Virus genome (UHGV): UHGV-0235795
DNA: 37,388 bases
Strand: one strand, 5' to 3'
Source: a virus
Shown in pieces: positions 1 to 15,601 of this stretch. How positions within the stretch are numbered: position 1 is the first letter of the stretch; each line of letters starts with the position of its first letter. The notes below the pieces were generated by a model. It searched no databases, had not been told where the DNA came from, and worked only from the letters and a program-made list of their open reading frames with translations. Both the position numbers and the translations under genes were made by a program.

Positions 1-129
1 CGGCGAACCAATATATTGAATTGTACGTTCTACAATTTCCATCACGCATTCTCCACAATGCGGACAGTAATTTGCATTTTCCGGAAGATCATCAAAACAC
101 CTCGGGCAAATTTTTGTCACTCTCCTCAC
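1..129 (-). CDS. Partial small zinc-ribbon protein (CPRC...CPHC), continues beyond window start
   Basis: Minus-strand frame open from GTG at 129..127 (GTGA overlap with stop of upstream gene) to position 1; translation VRRVTKICPRCFDDLPENANYCPHCGECVMEIVERTIQYIGSP; absent from ORF track because truncated. Confidence 0.3.
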   Translation of the reverse strand, partial: MRRVTKICPRCFDDLPENANYCPHCGECVMEIVERTIQYIGSP

Positions 130-284
130 CTCGCTTCATCTTTCTTATCCATCGCTTCTTCTTTTTTTCTGCTCATTGCCGCAGCAGTAGCAATCGTTCC
201 CTCGAGATATCCTCTCTCCCTCTCGCTCATTACTGACAGCTTGTCTGCCAGCTCTTCAATTATTTTCTTTTCTTTTTCCGACAT
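126..284 (-). CDS. Small hypothetical early protein (52 aa)
   Basis: Internal ATG at 284 preceded by GAGGTGA RBS, directly downstream of the Cro-like gene; the track ORF 126..329 overlaps the upstream gene so the shorter start is preferred. Confidence 0.35.
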   Translation of the reverse strand: MSEKEKKIIEELADKLSVMSERERGYLEGTIATAAAMSRKKEEAMDKKDEAR

Positions 285-288
285 CTGA

Positions 289-492
289 TCACCTCGCTTT
301 CTCTTCATCTGTTGCAAACAGATAATCAAATTTCACCTTGAATATCTTGCACATTTTCTTCGCTTCGAGTGCAGTGAATTTCCCAGTTTTTTTCTTATTC
401 TCATAAGATACTCTTGAAATTCCGACCATATCTGCCATTCGCTGATTTGTGTAAGAATGTCTTGCCTGCTCAGCATCTAAATTTTTAAACAA
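289..492 (-). CDS. XRE-family HTH regulator, Cro-like (divergent from repressor)
   Basis: 67 aa with HTH segment QRMADMVGISRVSYENKKKTGK; divergently oriented to the CI-like gene across an operator-rich intergenic region; TTG start with GGGAG about 10 nt upstream. Confidence 0.55.
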   Translation of the reverse strand: MFKNLDAEQARHSYTNQRMADMVGISRVSYENKKKTGKFTALEAKKMCKIFKVKFDYLFATDEEKAR

Positions 493-747
493 TTCCTCTT
501 CGCTCCCTTCTGCTATAATATTGGTGCGGACTGCAAATCGCCTCTATGAAAGGAGGTGGTATCATTGAAGATTTATAAAACTGTAAAATCAAGTAAACTC
601 ATTCAGAAATATGAGAAACTCGGATATAAGCTTCTGTATTTTACTTACACGGGTAACGACCTCTCCACAATGTCAGCCCATTTAGAAAAGAAACTGTAGT
701 GTTCCAGTAACTGTCAACCTCGCTCCAATGCAGTCCGCGTTTCAAAA

Positions 748-827
748 TTTGCATTTCGCAAACTTTAATTATACTATAATTGCTTATCGCAAACTTGTCA
801 ATAGTTTTCTTTTCATTTTGCAAACTT
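748..827. promoter_or_regulatory. Three operator-like sites (TTTGC-N5-GCAAA, TTGC-N5-GCAA, TTTGCAAA palindrome) spaced 31 bp apart
   Basis: Direct repeats YCGCAAACTT at 756-765, 787-796 and 818-827, each embedded in an inverted repeat; located between the divergent Cro-like and CI-like genes. Confidence 0.5.
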
Positions 828-832
828 TTTTA

Positions 833-861
833 TTGACACTTTTTCAATACGCAACTATAAT
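833..861 (+). promoter_or_regulatory. Consensus sigma-A promoter for repressor operon
   Basis: TTGACA (833-838), 17-nt spacer, TATAAT (856-861), then AGGAGG RBS at 873-878 before ATG 887. Confidence 0.6.
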
Positions 862-886
862 CTTAATTAACAGGAGGTACTAAAAT

Positions 887-1195
887 ATGGGTGAGCACTT
901 CAATGAAAATTTAAAAGAAGCAAGACTAAAATCTGGGCTATCTCAGAAAGATCTTTCAGAAAATATAGGTGTTGCAAAATCAACATATTCTCTATATGAA
1001 AGCGGAAAACGCGAGCCAAATGTAGATACGATTAAAAAAATAGCATCTGCATTAAATGTTTCTGCCGATATGTTACTCGGACTTGAAGCTGAACCAACCA
1101 CTCTTGCCGCCCACTTTGACGGTGATGAATACACAGAAGATGAAATGGAAGAAATCAAAAACTTCGCTGCATTTGTAAAGAACAGAAGAAAATAA
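887..1195 (+). CDS. XRE-family HTH repressor (CI/ImmR-like)
   Basis: N-terminal HTH_XRE motif LKEARLKSGLSQKDLSENIGVAKSTYSLYESGKREPNVDTIKKIASALNVSADMLLG; followed by ImmA-type protease gene. Confidence 0.8.
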   Translation: MGEHFNENLKEARLKSGLSQKDLSENIGVAKSTYSLYESGKREPNVDTIKKIASALNVSADMLLGLEAEPTTLAAHFDGDEYTEDEMEEIKNFAAFVKNRRK

Positions 1196-1243
1196 GACAT
1201 TTTTATTGGACAGATAAGCTGATATGCTGTAGTGGGAGGTGTT

Positions 1244-1714
1244 ATGCATATGAACACATACGAATGTTTACAAGACGAAGCCTGCAGGGACAGTATAAAT
1301 GTTATAGATTATACATTTCACAGTGACCGGATAAAAGGATTGTACTGTGATGGTACTGTAGCAATCAAAAAAGATATGAATACAATTCAGAAAACCTGCA
1401 CACTGGCTGAAGAGCTTGGACATCACCACACATCCGTTGGTGATATTATAAATACAAATTCCGTACAAAACCGCAAGCAAGAACGACAGGCTCGTTTGTG
1501 GGGATACAATAAATTAATTGGACTCATGGGGATTGTCCGGGCATTTAATGCCGGATGTCAAAACCAATATGAAATCGCAGAGTACTTAGATGTTACAGAA
1601 GAATACCTGCAAGAATGCATTAACTGCTATCAGAGTAAATACGGAATCTGTACTACTGTAGATAACTATGTTATTTACTTTGTTCCTTATCTGACAGTTA
1701 CAGAAATGATATAA
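1244..1714 (+). CDS. ImmA/IrrE-family metallopeptidase (anti-repressor protease)
   Basis: HEXXH-type motif in LAEELGHHHTSVGD; classic XRE + ImmA pairing; start could be ATG 1244 or 1250 after GGGAGGTG RBS (track lists GTG 1232). Confidence 0.7.
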   Translation: MHMNTYECLQDEACRDSINVIDYTFHSDRIKGLYCDGTVAIKKDMNTIQKTCTLAEELGHHHTSVGDIINTNSVQNRKQERQARLWGYNKLIGLMGIVRAFNAGCQNQYEIAEYLDVTEEYLQECINCYQSKYGICTTVDNYVIYFVPYLTVTEMI

Positions 1715-1790
1715 CCCCTCGTGGGATTATATAAATGAATAAGTGGTGTTATTCATAAAGAACGGTTCTTATTAACAAAGGAGAAAACAA

Positions 1791-3383
1791 ATGGGTATAG
1801 GGAATATTTTTAAAATCAAGCAATTCAAAGAACGGATTGCCAGTCTTGAAGCGGAGAATCAAACGCTTTCGCAAAATAATGCAGACTTACAGTCAGCTAC
1901 TACTGAATTAAGAGGAAAGCTTTCTGAAATTGGTGGATTTGACTACTATAAAGTAAAATCCATGACCGAACAGATGGAAAAAGAGTACGCTGTCAAACAA
2001 AGAGATCTGAGTATAGAGTATGATGTAAAAGTAGATACTCTGAAAAAGGAATACGAAAGAAAGCAGGCAGAAGCTGAAAAAGGCTTACGAGAGCAACTTG
2101 TCCAACTTGAAAGAATGATTTCTGACCGCACAGACAAATCGCAGTCATTACAGGAAAAAATTGCAGAAGAAATGCTTCAGGAGAGTAAGCTCACCAAACA
2201 GATCAAAACCCAAACTAATAAACTCGGACGATCAAAAGAGTTGGTAAAAGCAATCAATTACAGTTTGGACAATTTCTTTAATTATGATCCTGCAATCAGT
2301 TCTTTAAAATTTAGTGAAAAAGATTTAACCGATTTGGAAGAAATCAGTCCTTCCGTTATCCTGAAGCTCCATTGTATGGATGTAAAAGATCTCCGTAAAG
2401 CCTACCGCCAAAATGATAAGCAAATCAATGATCTTTTAGCAAAATATTCTGCCCGGTACACCACTAAAGCAAATCAGGCAATTTATAAACTTATGGTCAT
2501 TGCTCTTAGAGCAGAGCTTCAAAATATCCTGTATAACCTTAAATTTGAAAAGCTTGAAAAATCTATTGATGATATCAAAGATGTAACTCATAAATATCTT
2601 GAGATTGCAGGAAATGGAAATCAGAGCATCGCAGGAACTCTCACCAAATTTATTGGAGAAATAGAGTATTTGTTTATTAATGCAGCAAAGATTGAATATA
2701 ATTACTACGTTAAAAAAGAACAGGCTCGTCAGGAACAACTTGCTATCCGTGAGCAAATGAGACAGGAAGCCGAGGAACGTAAAGCACTGGAAGCTGAACG
2801 TAAAAAAATAGAACAGGAAGAATCAAAATACAATTCCGAAATTGAAAAGCTGAGAACCCAACTCACCAGTGCTAAAGACGAGGAGGTTGAAAAATTAAAC
2901 GCAAGAATCCTTGCACTACAGGCTCAACTTGCTGACGTTGCTATAAAGAAAGACGAAATTTCTACTCTTGCCAATGGAAAAGCTGGTAACGTGTACGTTA
3001 TCAGTAATCTTGGATCTTTTGGCGAAAATGTATTTAAGATTGGAATGACCCGAAGACTCAATCCACAGGATCGAGTAGATGAACTTGGTAATGCATCTGT
3101 TCCATTCCGTTTTGACGTACATAGCTTTATTTTTTCTGATGATGCAGTTGGTCTTGAAAACAAACTCCATACTATCCTGACTGACAAACGTGTAAATAAG
3201 GTAAATATGAGAAAAGAATTTTTCAATGTATCACTTGATGAACTGGAACAACTTGTTACAGAAATAGAACCTACAGCAGAGTTCAATAGGACTATGGCTG
3301 CTGAAGAGTTCAGACAATCACAATCAACAGACAGCATTTATTCGTCCGATTATACTTATAGTGATGATGAAGACGATGAATAA
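1791..3383 (+). CDS. DUF4041-like coiled-coil protein with C-terminal T5orf172/GIY-YIG-like domain
   Basis: About 380 aa of K/E/Q-rich coiled coil, then VYVISNLGSFGENVFKIGMTRRLNPQDRVDELGNASVPFRFDVHSFIFSDDAVGLENKLHTILTDKRV, which matches the T5orf172/Mug113 GIY-YIG-like signature; acidic C-terminal tail; AT-rich relative to structural genes. Confidence 0.55.
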   Translation: MGIGNIFKIKQFKERIASLEAENQTLSQNNADLQSATTELRGKLSEIGGFDYYKVKSMTEQMEKEYAVKQRDLSIEYDVKVDTLKKEYERKQAEAEKGLREQLVQLERMISDRTDKSQSLQEKIAEEMLQESKLTKQIKTQTNKLGRSKELVKAINYSLDNFFNYDPAISSLKFSEKDLTDLEEISPSVILKLHCMDVKDLRKAYRQNDKQINDLLAKYSARYTTKANQAIYKLMVIALRAELQNILYNLKFEKLEKSIDDIKDVTHKYLEIAGNGNQSIAGTLTKFIGEIEYLFINAAKIEYNYYVKKEQARQEQLAIREQMRQEAEERKALEAERKKIEQEESKYNSEIEKLRTQLTSAKDEEVEKLNARILALQAQLADVAIKKDEISTLANGKAGNVYVISNLGSFGENVFKIGMTRRLNPQDRVDELGNASVPFRFDVHSFIFSDDAVGLENKLHTILTDKRVNKVNMRKEFFNVSLDELEQLVTEIEPTAEFNRTMAAEEFRQSQSTDSIYSSDYTYSDDEDDE

Positions 3384-3487
3384 TTAAAAAACCGCCCCTT
3401 CCCCAAAACATTACTACCATTCAAATGATATGAAAAATTTTATCAAAGTATCTCTGTTTATTTTATACGTGTTTGCACTTCTTTTTA

Positions 3488-3516
3488 TTGACATACGTGT
3501 CGGCACGTGTTATAAT
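3488..3516 (+). promoter_or_regulatory. hicAB promoter with operator-like palindrome in spacer
   Basis: TTGACA (3488-3493), 17-nt spacer TACGTGTCGGCACGTGT containing inverted repeat ACGTG..CACGT, TATAAT (3511-3516); related half-site TACGTGT also at 3467. Confidence 0.5.
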
Positions 3517-3538
3517 AATATCATAGAAAGGAGATATA

Positions 3539-3721
3539 ATGAAAACACAGGAATTATTAAAAATGCTAAAGAAAACGAAATGCGAATTGATTCGGAATGG
3601 TAGCCGGCATGATATTTGGTACAGTCCTATAACTGGAAAACAATTCGCAGTTCCAAGACACAAAGCAGAAATTCCAACAGGAACTCTCAACAACATTCTG
3701 AAAGATGCGGGACTTAAATAG
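3539..3721 (+). CDS. hicA: HicA-family type II toxin (mRNA interferase)
   Basis: 60 aa, CELIRNGSRHDIWYSPITGKQFAVPRHKAEIPTGTLNNILKDAGL is the YcfA/HicA signature. Confidence 0.8.
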   Translation: MKTQELLKMLKKTKCELIRNGSRHDIWYSPITGKQFAVPRHKAEIPTGTLNNILKDAGLK

Positions 3722-3771
3722 TCCCCTTCTTTTCCAGTCTTATATATTATATATTTGAAAGGAGAATTGTT

Positions 3772-4170
3772 ATGGCAAAATATGCTTATCCCGCAATTTT
3801 TACCCCTGAAGATGATGGAAGTTTTTCGATTAATTTTCCTGACTTGGAAGGTTGTTACACTTGTGGGGATTCACTGGAAGACGGTATTGAAATGGCAGAA
3901 GACGCACTCGCTCTAGTTCTTTACGGATACGAAAAGGACGGACGCAAAATCCCTGCCCCTTCTGCTCCATCAGAAATTACACTTTCTGATAACGACTTTA
4001 TTAATTATATTGCTTGCGATACAATGGCTTATCGTAAGATGTATAACAACAAAGCTGTCAAAAAAACTCTTACCATTCCAGAATGGTTAAATGAATCTGC
4101 TTCTGCTATGGGACTTAATTTCTCTCAGGTGCTTCAAGAAGCATTAATGCAGAAAATGCAGATGAAATAA
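3772..4170 (+). CDS. hicB: HicB-family antitoxin
   Basis: N-terminal YAYPAIFTPEDDGSFSINFPDLEGCYTCGDSLEDGIEMAEDAL is the HicB/UPF0150 RNase-H-like fold signature; immediately downstream of hicA. Confidence 0.75.
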   Translation: MAKYAYPAIFTPEDDGSFSINFPDLEGCYTCGDSLEDGIEMAEDALALVLYGYEKDGRKIPAPSAPSEITLSDNDFINYIACDTMAYRKMYNNKAVKKTLTIPEWLNESASAMGLNFSQVLQEALMQKMQMK

Positions 4171-4187
4171 TAATATAACTAAAAAAT

Positions 4188-4208
4188 CCCGGTGCTACCA
4201 ACACCGGG
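4188..4208. terminator. Stem-loop (7-bp perfect stem CCCGGTG/CACCGGG) after hicB, A-run upstream
   Basis: Seen directly; the T-run lies on the minus-strand side, so it may terminate antisense read-through or act weakly for hicAB. Confidence 0.35.
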
Positions 4209-4338
4209 AGATGAATAATGATCTCCGAAGAAATACATCATTCAACGACCAATGAATATTGTATCATCTTCGGAGCAGTCACGCAAGCGGAACAACCGTT
4301 CTGTGCTGGCTGTTATTTTTATACTAGGAGATGATAAT

Positions 4339-5454
4339 ATGGCTACAGCTAAAAAGTTACCTTCAGGATCTTGGAGGTGCTTAGTTTTTTCGCACTATGA
4401 AAACCTGTTCAACGAGGACGGAAGTCCTATGATTGACGAGAAGACGGGAAAACAGAAGCGGAAAAGGATTTATGAATCGTTTACGAGTGACTTACAGGGG
4501 AGACGTGGAAAGCGGGATGCAGAAGCTCAGGCGGCTCAGTTCCTTGCAGAGAAAGACCGGAAGAAACGCCCTGAGAACTGGACAGTGAAAGAAGCTTTTG
4601 AAAATTACATAAAGTTAAAGGATCATGTGCTGTCCGAGACTACTCTCCGTGGCTACGAGACGATCGCCCGGAATCAGATCGGACAGATAGCGGATATCAG
4701 CCTCCGCAAGCTCTCGCAGGAAGACGTACAGAGCTGGATTAACATTCTGTCGGTAAAGTTATCGCCTAAGACCGTAAAGAATGCCTACGGGCTGTTTACA
4801 GCGGTCATGCGGATGTATCTGCCAGATATGCACTTCCATACCACTCTGCCGTCCGCAAAGGCCTATGAGGGTTATGTTCCATCCGATCAGGACATCACGG
4901 ATCTGATCTGCTATATCCGGGGAACCGAACTGGAAAAAGCAGTGCTTCTCGCAGCGTTTGGAAGTCTCAGGCGTGGAGAAGTCTTCGGGCTGACGAAAGA
5001 GGATATCAAGGGGAACTCCATACGGATCAGAGAGACGAAAGTCCGGGGACGTAGTGGCATCATCAAAAAAGGACCCAAGACACAGAGCAGCTACCGATAC
5101 ATTATCATGCCGGAATTTGTGATCCGAAAATTTGACGATATCGAAAGCGGTCCGCTTGTCAGGATGCACCCGGAAGATCTATCTAAAAACTTTAAAAAGG
5201 TGCTTCGCTCTGCTGGGATTCCTGAATTTCGATACCATGATCTCAGACATTATACTGCGTCCATCATGCACGCCCTGAACATTCCGGATCAGTACATCAT
5301 GAAGCGTGGTGGATGGAAGTCTGACAGAGTCCTGAAAAGGGTATACCGTGGCACGATTGCACCGGAAGAAGAGAGATTTACAGACCGAATCAATGAGCAT
5401 TTTACGGAAATGATGCAACACGTCATGCAACACGATAAACGAAAAGCCTTATAA
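4339..5454 (+). CDS. int: Tyrosine site-specific integrase
   Basis: C-terminal catalytic region HDLRHYTASIMHALNIPDQYIMKRGGWKSDRVLKRVY (R..HxxR..Y); ATG 4339 preceded by GGAGATG RBS (track ORF starts upstream at 4252). Confidence 0.9.
   Translation: MATAKKLPSGSWRCLVFSHYENLFNEDGSPMIDEKTGKQKRKRIYESFTSDLQGRRGKRDAEAQAAQFLAEKDRKKRPENWTVKEAFENYIKLKDHVLSETTLRGYETIARNQIGQIADISLRKLSQEDVQSWINILSVKLSPKTVKNAYGLFTAVMRMYLPDMHFHTTLPSAKAYEGYVPSDQDITDLICYIRGTELEKAVLLAAFGSLRRGEVFGLTKEDIKGNSIRIRETKVRGRSGIIKKGPKTQSSYRYIIMPEFVIRKFDDIESGPLVRMHPEDLSKNFKKVLRSAGIPEFRYHDLRHYTASIMHALNIPDQYIMKRGGWKSDRVLKRVYRGTIAPEEERFTDRINEHFTEMMQHVMQHDKRKAL
5413..5434. repeat. Two tandem copies of ATGCAACACG (putative integrase arm-type sites), inside int 3' end
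   Basis: ATGCAACACG at 5413-5422 and 5425-5434; two further copies at 5628-5637 and 5650-5659 on the other side of the core. Confidence 0.4.
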
Positions 5455-5477
5455 ATACAGCATTTTCCTGTAGGTTT

Positions 5478-5504
5478 TCTGGGTTCGATTCCCGCCAGGT
5501 CCAC
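5478..5504 (+). other. tRNA 3'-end fragment (T-loop GGTTCGATTCC plus acceptor 3' strand), putative att core
   Basis: CTGGGTTCGATTCCCGCCAGGTCCA matches a tRNA T-arm/acceptor 3' half; no matching 5' half upstream, so it is a fragment typical of attP/attL carried next to int. Confidence 0.45.
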
Positions 5505-5534
5505 TTTTTCAAAAAGTGCGTAATTTCAAGGATA

Positions 5535-5579
5535 GCGGAGAAAGCCTTTAAAATAAGGGTTCTCCGCTTTTTCTTTTAC
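5535..5579 (+). terminator. Rho-independent terminator (GCGGAGA...TCTCCGC then T-run)
   Basis: 7-bp stem with long loop followed by TTTTTCTTTT; sits just after the tRNA fragment, where it would terminate the reconstituted tRNA or int transcript. Confidence 0.45.
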
Positions 5580-5627
5580 TGAAATGATTCTATTATTTCG
5601 GACTTTTTAAGCGTATTTTACAATCTT

Positions 5628-5659
5628 ATGCAACACGAAATACGCAAAAATGCAACACG
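5628..5659. repeat. Two copies of ATGCAACACG(AAA) in attP arm
   Basis: TGCAACACGAAA at 5629-5640 and 5651-5662, direct orientation, same as the copies at 5413-5434. Confidence 0.4.
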
Positions 5660-5682
5660 AAAACAGATGATACAATATTCAG

Positions 5683-5704
5683 CCCCGGAGTGACTGCTCC
5701 GGGG
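5683..5704 (-). terminator. Hairpin (8-bp perfect stem CCCCGGAG/CTCCGGGG) immediately 3' of endolysin stop
   Basis: Seen directly; positioned as terminator of the late operon although the trailing U-run is imperfect. Confidence 0.4.
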
Positions 5705-5709
5705 TAATC

Positions 5710-10680: not shown

Positions 10681-11462
10681 GCTGCTTCCCTCCGTTCCGG
10701 GAAGATATCCAAATCTATCCCATACGTTCCCGCCCAGTTCACCCGGATGAGACCGCTTGGGATCTTTTCAAAAATGGAATATTCATAACCTCGTTCATTA
10801 AACAGATTGGATACAGTTCCATTTGTCAGATATTTATATACTGTCTGCTCTGCGGAATCAATAATCATGTATTCATTGCGTTCCAGTGTGGTTCTGACTT
10901 CGTACGGGTATCCGTTGATTAATATCTTCGGATTTGTGCAAGGTCCGTATATCGTCATCTTAAAATCTGATGCAGAGGGATGGTCAATTTCAAATTCAGC
11001 CGTCCCCGCCCGAACATCTGCGAAATCAAAAGGAAAATCAAAGGGGAAGTCCAGTCCGCTTGCCGCTGTCATCTGACTTTGCGGAAAAAGCTGCTGACTT
11101 ACCACTGTCATCCATGACAAGGATGGGGCTGTAAAAGTAAGCTCCACCTCTGCCATATCGAACCCTTTCCAGTTCGACTTCTTTGACTTCTCCACACGGC
11201 AGGAGAGAAATGTATCATTGACGTACAATTTTCCATGTACTCCGAGATCTGCATCTACAGCAAGCACGCTGTACAGTTTTTCCATATTTTTCGCAAGACC
11301 TTCCCCGCTGCCATATACATCCACCTGTACCGTCTTCTGATATCCGCTTGCAGTCTCATCCCATTCGGAATCATACCAGTCTGCTTCTGCCGTATAATAC
11401 GGATCAACAAGAAAATTCAGGATCACTCCTTTTGAATTTATGTAATACGCTTCTCTTATCAT
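10674..11462 (-). CDS. Distal tail protein (Dit-like)
   Basis: 262 aa directly after tape measure, canonical Dit position. Confidence 0.55.
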   Translation of the reverse strand: MIREAYYINSKGVILNFLVDPYYTAEADWYDSEWDETASGYQKTVQVDVYGSGEGLAKNMEKLYSVLAVDADLGVHGKLYVNDTFLSCRVEKSKKSNWKGFDMAEVELTFTAPSLSWMTVVSQQLFPQSQMTAASGLDFPFDFPFDFADVRAGTAEFEIDHPSASDFKMTIYGPCTNPKILINGYPYEVRTTLERNEYMIIDSAEQTVYKYLTNGTVSNLFNERGYEYSIFEKIPSGLIRVNWAGTYGIDLDIFPERREAAW

Positions 11463-14400
11463 ATTTTCGGCACCGCTCCTTTCGGCAGTTCCCGGTCTAA
11501 CCGGGTCGTACCCAGGTATACCGGTCTGCTCTGCATCTTCTTAACACCGGCAGCCGTTGCATTCCCTACTTTCGTTGCCAGTTGCGTCAGATCCTCGTCT
11601 GAAATCCTCATAGTACTCTGTACGCTCTGCTGATTTATGATCTTTTCTGTACTCTGCAAGGCAAATGAGCTGGTGATCCTATTTGTATTCACCGCCATCG
11701 CCTCCCGCACCCGATTGGACAGATCTGCCATGTCCAGCGAATTCAGTGCCGAACGTGCCATTCGTTCTGAAGCCTTTTTTACAGCCGGAATCTGATCGTC
11801 AATTCCAAGTGCGAATCCCTTGCCAGAAAAACGCCCCGCTCCTCGCATTACTTTTGATGGTGAATGAATCCCCAGTACGCTCTTGACTTTTTCATAAGCC
11901 GTACTTGCCATCTCTGCCGCTTTTGATGCAGCTTTTCCAACCCAGTCACCAATTCCACGAACAAATCCTGATCCGAAATTAGACCCGGTATCGTATGAAT
12001 TAATACTTCCTGCTCCGCTTTTTGCACTGGTAGCAAGGGATGTTCCTTTTGCCCTTGCATCCCCTGCCTTACTTCCGACAGCAGAAGAATATGCTGTTCC
12101 GAACGATTTTCCAGTACTTCCCGGATTCACCGATCCAGCTCCACGCTTCGCACTGTCTGCCAGTCCTTTTCCTCTTGTCAACAGCTTCCCGACAAAACTG
12201 CCGATCGCTGTATCGAAAAATCTTCCAAATGCACTACCGGTCGAGGTCGGGTCAACAGCCCCTGCTCCTCTTTTTGCAGCTTCTGCATTCGCTTTTCCCT
12301 GTTGTTCCGAAACTGACAGCTGTGATCCGATTCCTTCATTAAAAGAAGTCATCAACCCTGATCCGATTTCTTTCGTATCTCCTACTGATCCCCGCATAGC
12401 ATCAAGCAGCCGGGAGATCACGCCAGTACCGGAAGAAGTAAGTTCCTCCTGACCTTCGTTCAATCCTTCAACCGCTCCTGGCCAGACATACGAAAAGATT
12501 TCTTTCACCGCACGGGACGGACTGTGGACATCAAGAGTCGTGATCAGGCTTTGCAGGAATGCATCCGCACCTTGCTCTGCCGGATCAACCAGCGTTTCAA
12601 ACCCTTCCAGTCCTTCCAAAGCTCCATACCACGCCTGTGACCACGTCTCTTTAGTTTTTTCGTCCAGTCCTGAAAATCCTTTCAGAAAGCTTTCCATTCC
12701 TGCCTGTGCCTCAGTGCTCAGCGTACCGGATATCTTTGCCTGTGCCATAGCCGCTACAAGTTTTGCAGAGCCATCCTTACCGGCATTTTTTAATATTTCC
12801 TTGATCTGATCCGCACCAGTTCCTACCTGATTCAGGGCAATCCCCATAGCCTCCGTCAAGCCATCTTTGGTCTGCTGGGTTAATTGCATTGTTCCATCTT
12901 TTTCAGCGAAAAAAATACTGGTAAGCTTATCTGTCATTGCACTGGCCTGCTCAATGGCTGCTTCTGATCCAATCTCCAAGGTTGTGTCAATTCCGCTCTG
13001 AATCTCTGCCAGTGCAGAGTTGATCGTATCAGTATTTCCACTCATTGCTGCCTCTGTCAGGCTACTGTAATCGGAGATGACTTTCTGATTATCCTGCATC
13101 GCCGCATTGGCAGCGTCAAAGTTTGCCTGCAATTCTTCCAGTCCACTACCTGCTTTTTCAAGCTTTTCCTTCAGTTCTCCGTACTTTTCAGTATTCCGCA
13201 CAATAGCTTCGCCCTGGGCATCATACCCCATTACTACAGCATTTGCCGATTCTGCTTCAAGTTCCTTCTCAAGTTCTGCGATCTTGCTTTTTTTGCTACT
13301 AAGCTTTTCGTAAGCGTCTGCCAGTTCAGCTGCCTTGTCTGCCTGCTCTTTCATTGCATCCGCATAGTCTGACTTCATGGAGTCAAGAACGGCTTCTGCT
13401 TTCTTTGCTGCGATCAGATCGTAGACAGATTTCTTCAAGTCGCTGTAGTTCTGAATCAGTCCATCGTTCAGGCTGATTTCTACACCTAACGCACTGGACA
13501 GCTCACCTGTGATATACGCTGCCCTTGCCTCCTGTCCTGCCTGCACCTTTCCATTCGCATCAACAATCTTTTGCAGTTCTCCCCACAATGCTTCTGCATT
13601 GTCGATCTCAGATGTGGCTGCCTGAATATTTTTCTGCCTTGCCGCTGCCTTTTCGTTAATACTGTCAATTTCATCCTGTGCCGCCTGGATATTTTCCTTT
13701 TGTGCCTCCGTCAGCCGATCTGTTGATGCCGCTTCATCATCCGTCAGCAGGATTGCTGTTCCGATACAGGCTGCCAGTGCCGCCCCTGCGGTAACAAGCA
13801 GACCGATTGGATTTGATGCCATAGCAGCGTTCAGGGCTGTCTGTGCTTTCGTCCACAGTCCGGTCAGGGCAGTCGTGACTCCGATCTGACCGCTATAGAC
13901 TCCCATCAGCGTTTCCCGGAGTGTCAGACCGCCGTTAGATGCTACAAGCTGTAAAGCATTGGCTTTTTCCATCGCAGTCAGCCTTGCCAGGGCTGCCGCA
14001 TTCAGGTTCGTCTGATTCTTGCTGACCTTTGTGGCTGTGCTATACAACTTCAATGCTGTTGTAGCTCCAGCCACCAATGGAGCTACGACACCCAGATTCC
14101 CACTCAACAGGTCGATGGCTTTTGTGACCGGTGGGAGTGCCACTTTCGCAAGCGTTCCTGCCGCTTTGGTCAGATTCTTGAATACAGATACTGCTTTTTT
14201 CCCGGCTGATTTCAACCCACCTGAATTGAGCGACTCTGACAAGGCTTCTACTGCATCCTGTGCCGGTTTCTTTAATTCTGCCGGCAGAAGGCTTGCAAGT
14301 CCTCCCGCTATTGATTCTGCCACTTCTGCTGCGGCTGTCAGAAGTCTTCCTTTATTTCCTGACACGCCGGAAATGAAAGATTCGATGAAATCAACCGCTG

Positions 14401-15601
14401 TATCCACCATTTCCGGTGCGTGGGATGCTGCATCCACGGCAAAATCTGCAAAGATGTTCCCGGCTTCTTTTACAGCCGATTTCAGACCGCCATTTTTAAA
14501 AGCGTTCGTCATATCACCTACAGCCTGAGTGGCTTGCACCGCCGTATCTTTCAGTGGCGTATCAAGAGATTCATAAATTTCAATGCCTAAACCCTCAAGG
14601 CTGGATTTCAAAATTGTAACCGCACCCTCGAGGTTGTCCTGCATCGTCTCCGACATATTCGCTGCTGTTCCATCAGCATTCTTTATAGCAGATGCGAGCT
14701 TGTCAAAATCGCTTTCTGACGCATTGACTATAGCCAGCAATCCTGACATAGCCTCCTGCCCTCCAATTGCCGCTGCCGCCGCTGCCTGCTCATCCGCGGG
14801 CAACCCCTGAAGGGAATCCCGCATATTCTCCATGACTTGCATCAGGGTTTTCATGCTGCCATCTGCGTTTTTCATGGATATATCATATTTGTCCAATGCC
14901 GCTGATGCTTCTTTTGGCGGCTTGGCCAGTCTGGTCAGCACACTCCTGAGGGCAGTACCTGCCTGGGTTCCCTTGATTCCCGAGTTTGCCATCAGTCCGA
15001 TAGCTTGGGACAGGTCTTCAATGTTATACCCCAACGCTCCTGCTACTGGTGCAGCATATTTAAATGTCTCACCCATCATAGAGACATTGGTGTTCGCATT
15101 ACTGGATGCTGCCGCAAGGACATTTGCGAAATGGGTGGAGTCCGATGCAGCCAGTCCCATCGCTGTCAGTGCATCTGTAACGATGTCAGAAGTCGTTGCA
15201 AGATCTTCACCGGATGCCGCTGCAAGATCCATGATCCCCTCAATACCGGACAGCATATCCTGTGTCTTCCATCCTGCCATAGCCATGTATTCCATAGCCT
15301 GAGCAGATTCAGAGGCACTGAACTTCGTCTTTGCCCCCATCTCCTTTGCCTTGTCAGTCAGCTTCTGCAGATCATCTCCTGTAGCTCCTGAAATGGCTGA
15401 TACTTTCGACATCTCGGACTCGAAACTGACACCAACCTTTACAGCTGCCGCTGCTGCACCTCCGAGAGCTGTGGACACTGCACTCACTGCTGTTGCTACG
15501 GTTTTCAGTCCGGTTTTCGCAAGTTTTCCCATTTTGCTTAAATCTTTTTCAATACCGGATGTGTCCAGTCCAGTATCGATAATCACTTTTCCGTCTGCCA
15601 A
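11459..15601 (-). CDS. Tail tape measure protein
   Basis: 1380 aa, Ala/Gly-rich with long coiled coils, C-terminal triplicated KRGAG(A/S)V(D/N)P.STG.(S/N)FG modules; TTG start right after the chaperone gene. Confidence 0.9.
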   Translation of the reverse strand: MADGKVIIDTGLDTSGIEKDLSKMGKLAKTGLKTVATAVSAVSTALGGAAAAAVKVGVSFESEMSKVSAISGATGDDLQKLTDKAKEMGAKTKFSASESAQAMEYMAMAGWKTQDMLSGIEGIMDLAAASGEDLATTSDIVTDALTAMGLAASDSTHFANVLAAASSNANTNVSMMGETFKYAAPVAGALGYNIEDLSQAIGLMANSGIKGTQAGTALRSVLTRLAKPPKEASAALDKYDISMKNADGSMKTLMQVMENMRDSLQGLPADEQAAAAAAIGGQEAMSGLLAIVNASESDFDKLASAIKNADGTAANMSETMQDNLEGAVTILKSSLEGLGIEIYESLDTPLKDTAVQATQAVGDMTNAFKNGGLKSAVKEAGNIFADFAVDAASHAPEMVDTAVDFIESFISGVSGNKGRLLTAAAEVAESIAGGLASLLPAELKKPAQDAVEALSESLNSGGLKSAGKKAVSVFKNLTKAAGTLAKVALPPVTKAIDLLSGNLGVVAPLVAGATTALKLYSTATKVSKNQTNLNAAALARLTAMEKANALQLVASNGGLTLRETLMGVYSGQIGVTTALTGLWTKAQTALNAAMASNPIGLLVTAGAALAACIGTAILLTDDEAASTDRLTEAQKENIQAAQDEIDSINEKAAARQKNIQAATSEIDNAEALWGELQKIVDANGKVQAGQEARAAYITGELSSALGVEISLNDGLIQNYSDLKKSVYDLIAAKKAEAVLDSMKSDYADAMKEQADKAAELADAYEKLSSKKSKIAELEKELEAESANAVVMGYDAQGEAIVRNTEKYGELKEKLEKAGSGLEELQANFDAANAAMQDNQKVISDYSSLTEAAMSGNTDTINSALAEIQSGIDTTLEIGSEAAIEQASAMTDKLTSIFFAEKDGTMQLTQQTKDGLTEAMGIALNQVGTGADQIKEILKNAGKDGSAKLVAAMAQAKISGTLSTEAQAGMESFLKGFSGLDEKTKETWSQAWYGALEGLEGFETLVDPAEQGADAFLQSLITTLDVHSPSRAVKEIFSYVWPGAVEGLNEGQEELTSSGTGVISRLLDAMRGSVGDTKEIGSGLMTSFNEGIGSQLSVSEQQGKANAEAAKRGAGAVDPTSTGSAFGRFFDTAIGSFVGKLLTRGKGLADSAKRGAGSVNPGSTGKSFGTAYSSAVGSKAGDARAKGTSLATSAKSGAGSINSYDTGSNFGSGFVRGIGDWVGKAASKAAEMASTAYEKVKSVLGIHSPSKVMRGAGRFSGKGFALGIDDQIPAVKKASERMARSALNSLDMADLSNRVREAMAVNTNRITSSFALQSTEKIINQQSVQSTMRISDEDLTQLATKVGNATAAGVKKMQSRPVYLGTTRLDRELPKGAVPKI

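What the first reader, a model, noticed from the sequence alone, without database searches (positions are those of the whole stretch)
1791..4210. Accessory cargo between integrase and repressor: DUF4041/T5orf172 protein plus a HicAB pair
The slot between int and the ImmA/XRE repressor module is the classic moron position where temperate phages carry superinfection-exclusion and anti-phage systems. Here it holds a 530-aa protein with an N-terminal coiled coil of about 380 aa, a C-terminal T5orf172/Mug113 GIY-YIG-like domain and an acidic tail. It is followed, under its own promoter, by a hicA-hicB toxin-antitoxin pair. Both genes are AT-richer than the structural genes. I know of no characterised function for this architecture. 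A nuclease-like effector tethered to a long coiled coil could be a single-gene abortive-infection or exclusion factor, and HicAB could be an independent Abi module or could stabilise the lysogen.
Basis: partly seen in the sequence, partly recalled or inferred. Interest (0 to 1): 0.72.

Follow-up and report, generated by a model that had tools for sequence, protein, structure and literature searches.

The report
Prophage SNIPE-like nuclease plus HicAB cassette
A gut temperate phage carries, between its repressor and integrase genes, a divergent, anchor-less relative of the already characterised SNIPE (PD-lambda-1) anti-phage nuclease, plus an independently acquired HicAB toxin-antitoxin cassette, so this is a recognisable defence cargo and not a new kind of system.

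Summary
All lie on the + strand: XRE 887-1195, ImmA 1232-1714, a 530-aa ORF 1791-3383, hicA 3539-3721, hicB 3772-4170, integrase 4339-5454.

The 530-aa protein matches the PADLOC PD-Lambda-1 model (E 2e-82). It is 47% identical over its last ~190 residues to E. coli PD-lambda-1, now called SNIPE (Nature 2026). SNIPE is a membrane-anchored GIY-YIG nuclease that cuts phage DNA during injection. The catalytic Glu is conserved (E456 = SNIPE E414). The claim of "no characterised function" is therefore out of date.

The window protein differs from SNIPE in three ways:
- It has no transmembrane helix.
- Pfam DUF4041 does not hit it, nor any of 54 clade representatives. Only profile-profile comparison links the middle domain to DUF4041 (probability 87-95%).
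- Many clade members, including this one, end in an acidic tail.

Homologues recur in the repressor-integrase slot of many prophages.

hicAB is a discrete ~0.8-kb cassette with a perfect sigma-70 promoter. Near-identical relatives lack it, and elsewhere it sits beside different cargo, so it is independent of the nuclease.

Verdict: new member of a known kind. The most likely function is exclusion of superinfecting long-tailed phages. Interest is modest.

The parts
833..861 (+). Perfect sigma-70-type promoter upstream of XRE. It probably drives XRE, ImmA and the nuclease gene in the lysogen. A divergent promoter at 801-773 (-) faces the cro-like gene 289-492.
   Evidence: 12/12 consensus match, one of two in the window with 0 expected. 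No convincing + strand terminator lies between 1195 and 1791. Co-transcription is inferred.
887..1195 (+). XRE/HTH_3 repressor-like protein (102 aa)
   Evidence: Pfam HTH_3 1.1e-19; PHROG transcriptional regulator.
1232..1714 (+). ImmA/IrrE M78 metalloprotease-like protein (160 aa)
   Evidence: Pfam Peptidase_M78 4.1e-6; phrog_87 metallo-protease 9.6e-36.
1791..3383 (+). 530-aa SNIPE/PD-lambda-1-like nuclease (whole gene)
   Evidence: PADLOC PD-Lambda-1 2.2e-82; phrog_1847 9e-100; BLASTP 47% identity over aa 319-510 to E. coli PD-lambda-1; strong RBS aaggag 8 nt upstream of the ATG.
1791..2276 (+). N-terminal helical/coiled-coil region, aa 1-162. It has no transmembrane helix. The N-terminal motif MG-x-G-D/N-I-F-K/R-I is conserved among close relatives.
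   Evidence: AF2 helices 5-46 and 52-162. Maximum KD19 hydrophobicity is 0.98 for the whole protein, against 3.37 in E. coli SNIPE. The DivIC match is sub-threshold at 1e-3. The motif is seen in alignment A1.
2316..2621 (+). Conserved helical bundle, aa 176-277. It is the core of a divergent DUF4041-like middle domain; the homologous stretch is about aa 140-320.
   Evidence: pLDDT >90 for aa 190-320. This is the most conserved pre-nuclease region in the family. hhalign against 11 canonical DUF4041 proteins gives probability 94.9, E 4e-8; a stricter cut gives 87; a reversed control gives 0.5. Pfam PF13250 is negative.
2622..2972 (+). Long helical hairpin (aa 278-394) linking the middle domain to the nuclease
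   Evidence: AF2 helices 278-360 and 363-394. It aligns with the equivalent SNIPE helix.
2976..3338 (+). GIY-YIG-type T5orf172/MUG113 nuclease domain (aa 396-516). The predicted catalytic Glu, E456, is encoded at 3156-3158.
   Evidence: Pfam hits. E456 aligns with SNIPE E414. Y402, K416, G418, R421, R422, E456, N469 and N472 are >=90% conserved in 54 clade representatives. BFVD fold hits are T5orf172/Bro proteins.
3339..3380 (+). Disordered acidic C-terminal tail (aa 517-530)
   Evidence: Net charge of aa 496-530 is -9. pLDDT is mostly <50 (segments 517-519, 521-524, 527-530). Acidic tails occur in about 55% of clade members regardless of TM status.
3409..4222 (+). hicAB cassette as an insertion/deletion unit relative to related prophages
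   Evidence: blastn against L013/L014 is colinear over 1468-3408 (96.7%), has a gap, then resumes at 4223-4325. Against L003/L005 the gap is 3392-4174.
3465..3516 (+). hicAB promoter (TTGACA-17-TATAAT with TG, 3488-3516). Two copies of ATACGTGTnnGCAC lie at 3465 and 3493; they are a putative HicB operator.
   Evidence: promoter; repeat D1. The operator role is inferred from the known autoregulation of HicAB by HicB.
3539..3721 (+). hicA toxin (60 aa)
   Evidence: Pfam HicA_toxin 2e-14; phrog_353 toxin 1.6e-20; aligns over its full length with HicA 4c26, including the GS-x-H motif.
3772..4170 (+). hicB antitoxin (132 aa) with a C-terminal ribbon-helix-helix-like tail
   Evidence: Pfam HicB_lk_antitox 1.9e-13; phrog_497 4.7e-43; full-length match to HicB 9svk_B 1.8e-15 and to 5yrz.
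4187..4209 (.). GC-rich hairpin between hicB and int. It is terminator-like, with an A-run before it and no T-run after it on the + strand.
4339..5454 (+). Tyrosine integrase. The ORF opens at 4252, but the start at 4339 has the RBS.
   Evidence: Pfam Phage_integrase 7e-10 and SAM_3; phrog_1 2.4e-44; sequence context.

Best explanation
The 530-aa gene encodes a divergent member of the SNIPE (PD-lambda-1) family of single-protein anti-phage nucleases. It is carried as lysogenic-conversion cargo in the repressor-integrase module of a temperate long-tailed phage of gut Clostridia.

Proposed mechanism, by analogy with E. coli SNIPE:
1. The protein is made in the lysogen, probably from the repressor promoter at 833-861.
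2. Its variable N-terminal region takes it to the site where a superinfecting phage injects DNA.
3. The DUF4041-like middle domain binds DNA and/or the incoming tape measure protein.
4. The C-terminal GIY-YIG/T5orf172 nuclease cuts the entering genome, and the cell survives. This is exclusion, not abortive infection. The resident prophage is spared because its DNA never passes through the entry site.

Shown here: family membership of the C-terminal half; conserved catalytic residues; remote homology and equivalent position of the middle domain; recurrent prophage placement. Inferred: expression in the lysogen, localisation, target, and the direct-defence phenotype.

hicAB is a separate, self-promoted type II toxin-antitoxin moron. 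HicA is an RNase toxin and HicB an antitoxin-repressor. Its most likely role is stabilising the element or causing growth arrest on infection, independently of the nuclease.
For: Family membership:
- PADLOC PD-Lambda-1 hits at E 2.2e-82 and 5.3e-77.
- The protein is 47% identical over 194 aa to the PD-lambda-1 of E. coli phage PhiR26_1. That protein carries all nine residues named in the SNIPE paper.
- E456 aligns with the catalytic E414. GIY-YIG-type residues are >=90% conserved in 54 clade representatives.

Architecture:
- The middle domain lies at the same distance from the nuclease as DUF4041 does in 11 canonical proteins: a constant gap of about 105 aa in 10 of them (95 in phage Mask).
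- It is linked to DUF4041 by hhalign at probability 94.9, E 4e-8, with a reversed control at 0.5.
- 34 of 54 clade representatives have a strongly hydrophobic N-terminal segment, as about two thirds of SNIPE homologues do (paper). The clade therefore keeps the SNIPE architecture.

Genomic context:
- Homologues at 99%, 77% and 70% identity sit between the repressor module and a tyrosine or serine recombinase.
- Canonical DUF4041 genes occupy the same slot in phages EJ-1, CDMH1 and PMBT9.
- A recombinase lies within 3 genes downstream in 31 of 74 genomic loci.

Published mechanism:
- Direct defence, cleavage during injection, contact with the tape measure protein, and no effect on prophage induction (PMC13190303).
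- A PD-Lambda-1 homologue protects Gram-positive S. thermophilus.

hicAB independence.
Against: - There is no transmembrane helix and no exceptional N-terminal amphipathic helix. In E. coli, SNIPE lacking its TM is toxic and cuts host DNA. How this protein is localised or restrained is unknown.
- The N-terminal 320 aa alone give no PADLOC PD-Lambda-1 hit, and Pfam DUF4041 is negative for the whole clade. The part of SNIPE implicated in DNA and tape-measure binding is therefore only remotely related, at 14% identity. On the strictest cut the hhalign probability falls to 29%.
- There are no expression, localisation or phenotype data for this clade.
- The resident phage itself has a 1380-aa tape measure protein. 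Specificity against relatives as opposed to self cannot be predicted.
Confidence: 0.65

Rival explanations
1. The protein is a soluble, infection-triggered nuclease that acts as an abortive-infection effector. It is held inactive, for example by its acidic tail or by coiled-coil oligomerisation, and on infection it degrades DNA indiscriminately. Only its nuclease module is shared with SNIPE.
For: - There is no TM helix.
- The N-terminal 320 aa alone are not recognised by PD-Lambda-1 or DUF4041 models.
- Anchor-less E. coli SNIPE cuts host DNA.
- The acidic tail is a recurrent clade feature.
Against: - 63% of clade representatives do have N-terminal hydrophobic anchors.
- The middle domain is remotely homologous to DUF4041 and lies in the same position.
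- The acidic tail does not correlate with loss of the TM (p = 0.41).
- The characterised family member gives direct defence.
Confidence: 0.15
2. The protein serves the phage's own life cycle and not defence. It could be a Bro/T5orf172-type DNA-binding regulator, a homing-type GIY-YIG endonuclease, or a factor in host DNA degradation.
For: - T5orf172/Bro-like domains are widespread in lytic phages and eukaryotic viruses.
- Database names such as 'helicase', 'chromosome segregation ATPase' and 'replication' are attached to homologues.
Against: - The gene lies in the lysogeny module on the repressor strand, not among the early or lytic genes.
- It is dispensable and variable among otherwise near-identical prophages, where other cargo occupies the same slot.
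- The full-length family has a demonstrated anti-phage phenotype.
- The database names are unsupported by any domain hit.
Confidence: 0.08
3. The nuclease and hicAB form one functional three-gene system. For example, HicAB might sense or back up the nuclease, or HicB might control it.
For: - The genes are adjacent and on the same strand in the window and in several metagenomic prophages (L027, L031, L033).
Against: - Nuclease genes at 99%, 77% and 70% identity occur without hicAB.
- The identical hicAB occurs with unrelated upstream genes of 177, 262 and 290 aa.
- hicAB has its own perfect promoter.
- No HicA was found, and only one HicB-like ORF, near 78 homologues in genomes.
Confidence: 0.04

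Closest known systems
SNIPE / PD-lambda-1 of E. coli (Vassallo 2022, PMC9519451; Saxton 2026, PMC13190303)
   Same: - Single-gene system of about 500 aa.
- Same domain order: variable N-terminus, helical region, middle domain, long helix, C-terminal GIY-YIG/T5orf172 nuclease.
- 47% identity over the last ~190 aa.
- Catalytic Glu conserved.
- Hit by the PADLOC PD-Lambda-1 HMM.
- Often carried by prophages.
   Different: - No N-terminal transmembrane helix.
- The middle domain is not recognised by Pfam DUF4041 and is only about 14% identical by profile-profile alignment.
- Acidic C-terminal tail.
- Gram-positive (Clostridia) host, so no ManYZ-type partner can be assumed.
- No experimental data.
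Canonical DUF4041 + T5orf172 proteins of temperate phages (EJ-1 ORF3, CDMH1 gp42, PMBT9, ES18 gp19, PLE3 gp32)
   Same: - Same C-terminal module.
- In EJ-1, CDMH1 and PMBT9, the same position between repressor and integrase.
- Annotated as morons or hypothetical proteins.
   Different: - All carry a Pfam-detectable DUF4041 (1e-11 to 3e-25).
- Most have an N-terminal hydrophobic anchor.
- The window protein has neither.
HicAB type II toxin-antitoxin systems (e.g. PDB 4c26 HicA; 9svk and 5yrz HicB)
   Same: - Toxin-first gene order.
- HicA of 60 aa with the GS-x-H motif.
[quoted passage not shown]
- Own promoter with repeats in and next to it.
   Different: Nothing notable. It is simply phage-borne and sits immediately upstream of the integrase. 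An anti-phage role for HicAB is proposed in the literature (bioRxiv 10.1101/2023.12.08.570793) but was not tested here.
HK97 gp15-type superinfection exclusion and other prophage morons acting at DNA entry
   Same: - Prophage-encoded and expressed in the lysogen.
- Expected to act at genome injection, with dependence on the tape measure protein.
   Different: gp15 is a small membrane protein without nuclease activity. There is no sequence relationship.

Membership tests
SNIPE / PD-lambda-1 | C-terminal GIY-YIG (T5orf172/MUG113) nuclease domain with the catalytic Glu (E414 in SNIPE) | tested here: met
   Pfam MUG113 1.2e-18 and T5orf172 5.4e-15. E456 aligns with E414. Motif residues are >=90% conserved in the clade.
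SNIPE / PD-lambda-1 | Match to the family's full-length detection model (PADLOC PD-Lambda-1) | tested here: met
   E 2.2e-82, aa 57-515 against profile positions 38-474 of 491. The score comes from the C-terminal ~210 aa; aa 1-320 alone give no hit.
SNIPE / PD-lambda-1 | Central DUF4041 domain, as detected by Pfam PF13250 | tested here: not met
   No hit at E<=10 and 0 of 54 clade representatives hit, against 11 of 11 canonical homologues.
SNIPE / PD-lambda-1 | Middle domain homologous to DUF4041 and in the equivalent position (about 105 aa before the nuclease) | tested here: inconclusive
   hhalign on the middle regions only gives probability 94.9, E 4e-8. The cut aa 140-296 gives probability 87. 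The core aa 196-296 gives probability 29. A reversed control gives 0.5. The position is equivalent. Remote homology is likely but not proven. No DUF4041 structure was available to compare folds.
SNIPE / PD-lambda-1 | N-terminal transmembrane anchor (present in about 66% of published homologues; essential in E. coli SNIPE) | tested here: not met
   Maximum KD19 is 0.98 against 3.37 in E. coli. The ORF cannot extend further upstream. 34 of 54 clade relatives do have such a segment. The paper reports 34% of homologues without a TM, so this does not exclude membership.
SNIPE / PD-lambda-1 | Works as a single gene (no obligate partner) | tested here: met
   Neighbours vary: with or without hicAB, and with a Tyr or Ser recombinase.
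SNIPE / PD-lambda-1 | Membrane localisation, cleavage of phage DNA during injection, association with the tape measure protein, direct (non-abortive) defence | not testable with these tools
   Needs microscopy or fractionation, injection assays with labelled DNA, and plaque and survival assays.
HicAB type II toxin-antitoxin | HicA toxin domain (PF07927) with a conserved His in the GS-x-H motif | tested here: met
   Pfam 2e-14. Alignment to HicA 4c26 covers aa 1-59, with H24 in the motif.
HicAB type II toxin-antitoxin | Adjacent HicB antitoxin with a HicB fold plus a DNA-binding C-terminus, downstream of hicA | tested here: met
   Pfam PF15919 1.9e-13. Full-length match to HicB 9svk_B at 1.8e-15. 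The gap between the genes is 50 nt.
HicAB type II toxin-antitoxin | Toxicity of HicA and its neutralisation by HicB | not testable with these tools
   Needs expression assays.

The most novel reading that the evidence does not exclude
The Pfam-DUF4041-negative clade, and this anchor-less member in particular, may localise or gate a SNIPE-type nuclease by a mechanism not yet described. One possibility is docking of the conserved N-terminal MG-x-G-D-I-F-K/R-I motif and its ~160-aa coiled coil to a Gram-positive membrane, divisome or phage-entry component. Another is autoinhibition by the acidic tail acting as a DNA mimic. If so, it would show how such nucleases avoid cutting the host chromosome without a membrane anchor.
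Probability: 0.2. Interest if true: 0.55.

Novelty: new member of a known kind. Interest (0 to 1): 0.3.

Why it matters
It places a validated and recently explained defence mechanism, nuclease attack on phage DNA at the moment of injection, in the lysogeny module of a common human-gut Clostridia prophage family. It also shows that the repressor-integrase slot of that family is a swap site for cargo.

For annotation, Pfam-based searches for DUF4041 miss a whole Bacillota-centred clade (218 clusters at 50% identity) that PADLOC still calls PD-Lambda-1.

For mechanism, anchor-less natural variants such as this one are useful test cases. In E. coli, removing the anchor makes SNIPE toxic, so these variants bear on how SNIPE-type nucleases are kept off host DNA. 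None of this is a new kind of system.

Tried and rejected
- **Pfam DUF4041.** It was negative on the whole protein and on its N-terminal and middle parts, even at E<=10. NCBIfam gave only sub-threshold noise, TrlF at 22 bits against a cut-off of 350.
- **PADLOC on aa 1-320, 134-320 and 1-133 separately.** There was no PD-Lambda-1 signal. The whole-protein hit therefore rests on the C-terminal half.
- **First AlphaFold2 run.** A shallow alignment of 35 sequences at 71-86% identity gave pLDDT 68.5, and I did not use the model. The second run, with 54 diverse sequences, was usable.
- **Fold searches.**
  - afdb50 was not available.
  - The PDB sequence-profile search found nothing relevant.
  - BFVD confirmed only the nuclease fold.
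- **Amphipathic N-terminal membrane-binding helix.** The hydrophobic moment of aa 1-18 is 0.27, equal to the protein-wide mean of 0.25. Not supported.
- **Acidic tail compensating for loss of the TM anchor.** Rejected. Tail charge does not differ between 65 members with a TM and 71 without (Mann-Whitney p = 0.41; Fisher p = 1.0).
- **Nuclease and hicAB as one system.** Rejected because each occurs without the other.
- **Alternative cargo in the same slot.** The 177-, 262- and 290-aa proteins gave no PADLOC hit.
- **Terminal repeat test for a circular assembly.** There is no exact overlap. Colinearity with L013 nevertheless indicates that the window's two ends are contiguous.
Full report
**What is in the sequence**

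Window 1-5500 holds a lysogeny module, all on the + strand:
- XRE repressor-like gene, 887-1195
- ImmA/M78 protease-like gene, 1232-1714
- a 530-aa ORF, 1791-3383
- hicA, 3539-3721
- hicB, 3772-4170
- a tyrosine integrase. The ORF opens at 4252, but the ATG at 4339 has the ribosome-binding site.

A cro-like gene (289-492) and the lysin, holin and tail genes lie on the - strand. These include a 1380-aa tape measure protein at 11459-15601. The integrase is followed directly by the lysin. Comparison with a related contig also shows that the two ends of the window are contiguous. The window is therefore a permuted temperate-phage genome, not an integrated copy. Integrated relatives sit next to a D-Tyr deacylase/Rce1/sigma-70/cysS locus in gut metagenome contigs.

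**Checking the observation**

The T5orf172/MUG113 domain, the acidic tail and the HicA-HicB pair are all real.

The hicAB promoter is a 12/12 TTGACA-17-TATAAT match with an extended TG at 3488-3516. Only one other perfect match exists in the window, at 833-861 upstream of XRE, and shuffles give none.

The low GC is also real: about 36-39% against 45-50% in the structural genes. It applies equally to the XRE, ImmA and cro-like genes, so it marks the whole regulatory arm and not the cargo alone.

Two points fail.
- Pfam DUF4041 (PF13250) does not hit the protein at any threshold.
- The '380-aa coiled coil' is really several parts. In a confident AlphaFold2 model (pLDDT 84.6) there is an N-terminal helical region (helices 5-46 and 52-162), a linker, a conserved helical bundle (about 176-277), and a helical hairpin (278-394) leading into the nuclease.

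**What the 530-aa protein is**

PADLOC assigns it to PD-Lambda-1 (E 2.2e-82). [quoted passage not shown]

It has since been characterised as SNIPE (bioRxiv 10.1101/2025.11.03.685801; Nature 2026, PMC13190303). The published findings are:
- An N-terminal transmembrane helix anchors it in the inner membrane.
- DUF4041 binds DNA and probably the phage tape measure protein.
- Cells survive, so this is direct defence.
- Prophage induction is unaffected.
- Removing the anchor makes the protein toxic because it then cuts host DNA.

A PD-Lambda-1 homologue also protects Gram-positive S. thermophilus.

As a reference I used the PD-lambda-1 of E. coli phage PhiR26_1. It carries all nine residues named in the SNIPE paper at the stated positions. 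The window protein is 47% identical to it over aa 319-510, and E456 aligns with E414. GIY-YIG-type residues are at least 90% conserved across 54 clade representatives. The BFVD fold search finds T5orf172/Bro-type domains.

**How it differs from SNIPE**

1. *No transmembrane helix.* The highest 19-residue Kyte-Doolittle mean is 0.98, against 3.37 in E. coli SNIPE. The ORF cannot be extended upstream.

2. *The N-terminal 320 residues alone match nothing in PADLOC or Pfam*.
   - A whole-library HMMER search with those residues finds only 218 clusters at 50% identity. They share mainly aa ~80-320 and have variable N-termini.
   - Of 54 full-length representatives, 53 have MUG113 and 52 have T5orf172, but none has Pfam DUF4041.
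   - By contrast, 11 of 11 canonical phage-borne homologues have DUF4041. These come from E. coli, Salmonella, Klebsiella, Marinitoga, Streptococcus, Clostridioides, Staphylococcus, Lactobacillus, Mycobacterium and Synechococcus phages. In 10 of them the domain ends a constant ~105 residues before the nuclease (95 in Mycobacterium phage Mask).
   - Profile-profile comparison restricted to the middle regions links the two groups. The probability is 94.9% (E 4e-8, 14% identity). It is 87% with the shared helix trimmed off and 29% for the 100-residue core alone. A reversed control gives 0.5%.
   - I read this as a strongly diverged DUF4041 homologue in the equivalent position. That is likely but not proven.

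3. *An acidic C-terminal tail is common in the clade.* About 55% of members have at least 5 D/E in the last 15 residues, and such tails are rare among the canonical proteins. The tail is not linked to loss of the anchor (p = 0.41).

The clade as a whole keeps the SNIPE plan. 34 of 54 representatives have a strongly hydrophobic N-terminal segment. This is close to the two thirds reported for SNIPE homologues, of which 34% lack a TM. The window protein belongs to the anchor-less minority. Its relatives share a conserved N-terminal motif, MG-x-G-D-I-F-K/R-I, followed by a coiled coil that has only sub-threshold DivIC/ZapB similarity.

**Genomic context**

Homologues at 99%, 77% and 70% identity lie between an XRE/ImmA module and a tyrosine or serine recombinase in gut prophages. 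Canonical DUF4041 genes occupy the same slot in EJ-1, CDMH1 and PMBT9.

I examined 78 homologue loci from species-representative genomes. They are mostly Clostridia and Bacilli, with some Treponema and Bacteroidales.
- 31 of 74 have a recombinase within three genes downstream, and in 19 it is adjacent.
- 39 of 78 have an XRE/ImmA gene within three genes upstream.

These are lower bounds, because I detected the neighbours with seed-based HMMs.

No convincing terminator separates ImmA from the nuclease gene. Transcription from the repressor promoter in the lysogen is therefore plausible, but it is inferred.

**hicAB is independent of the nuclease**

- Related phages are colinear with the window up to 3392-3408 and again from 4175-4223, and they lack the ~0.8-kb cassette in between.
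- The identical HicB is very common in the public collection (more than 3000 index blocks). In the eight places shown it is always in the order hicA-hicB-integrase.
- The gene upstream of it varies. It can be the 530-aa nuclease, unrelated ORFs of 177, 262 or 290 aa, an HNH protein followed by the nuclease, or a split nuclease gene.

The slot upstream of hicAB-int is thus a cargo-exchange site. The nuclease and hicAB each occur without the other.

The promoter region carries two copies of ATACGTGTnnGCAC, at 3465 and 3493, which are a candidate HicB operator. HicAB's role here cannot be decided from sequence. It could be element stabilisation, as shown for plasmids (PMC11878559), or phage defence, as proposed in bioRxiv 10.1101/2023.12.08.570793.

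**Conclusion**

The finding is real, but it is explained by known biology: a prophage-borne SNIPE/PD-lambda-1-type nuclease plus a HicAB moron.

The best-supported mechanism is exclusion of superinfecting long-tailed phages by cutting their DNA at entry. I put this at about 0.65 for this protein. The uncertainty comes from the missing membrane anchor, the divergent middle domain and the lack of any experiment on this clade.

It is a new member of a known kind. The open and mildly interesting question is how an anchor-less natural variant is localised or restrained.

Noticed in passing
L027-L034, about 3000-4620 in each locus (equivalent to window 1791-3400): In prophages carrying the identical hicAB-int, the gene just upstream varies. 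It can be the 530-aa nuclease, unrelated ORFs of 177, 262 or 290 aa with no Pfam or PADLOC hit, or an HNH protein followed by the nuclease. The slot looks like a cargo-exchange hotspot that may hold unrecognised defence genes.
   Followed up: partly
L029:3016-4612: The nuclease gene is split into ORFs of 96 and 422 aa in one integrated relative. This is probably a frameshift or decay of the gene.
   Followed up: no
window 748-861 and 289-492: A divergent promoter pair forms a compact cI/cro-type switch. One is a perfect TTGACA-17-TATAAT at 833-861 (+). The other is TTGACA-17-TATAGT at 801-773 (-), facing a 67-aa cro-like ORF that has no Pfam hit.
   Followed up: no
window 4326-5664: The integrase is mosaic. 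It is 47.8% GC against about 37% for its neighbours. It has no nucleotide similarity to the integrase of the otherwise 93-97% identical phage L013, but it is 76% identical to that of L003/L005. This implies exchange of the integration module. A terminator-like hairpin at 5682-5705 lies in the probable attP region, 5455-5709.
   Followed up: partly
window 3465-3506: Two copies of ATACGTGTnnGCAC lie 28 nt apart. One is inside the spacer of the hicAB promoter. They are a candidate HicB operator.
   Followed up: no
clade representatives P0136, P0146, P0150, P0163, P0189, P0213 (N-termini): Several anchor-less clade members begin with a Cys-rich motif such as FLKVNS-G-CK-CE, which looks like a zinc ribbon. 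This type of N-terminus is not among those the SNIPE paper lists for TM-less homologues in the text I read.
   Followed up: no
C-termini of 136 SNIPE-like proteins (alignment A2, L035-L114): Strongly acidic C-terminal tails occur in about 55% of the Pfam-DUF4041-negative clade, but in only one of 11 canonical DUF4041 proteins (ES18). They are independent of TM presence. Their function is unknown.
   Followed up: partly
window 11459-15601 (-): A 1380-aa tape measure protein shows that the phage is long-tailed. Its best annotated relatives are Ruminococcus, Oscillospiraceae and Clostridium phages. A 95%-identical fragment occurs in a human faecal virome record (MT837478.1).
   Followed up: partly
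window 1709-1732: A 10-bp-stem hairpin (ATATAACCCCTCGTGGGATTATAT) overlaps the ImmA stop codon, just upstream of the nuclease gene. No T-run follows it on the + strand. Its role is unknown.
   Followed up: no
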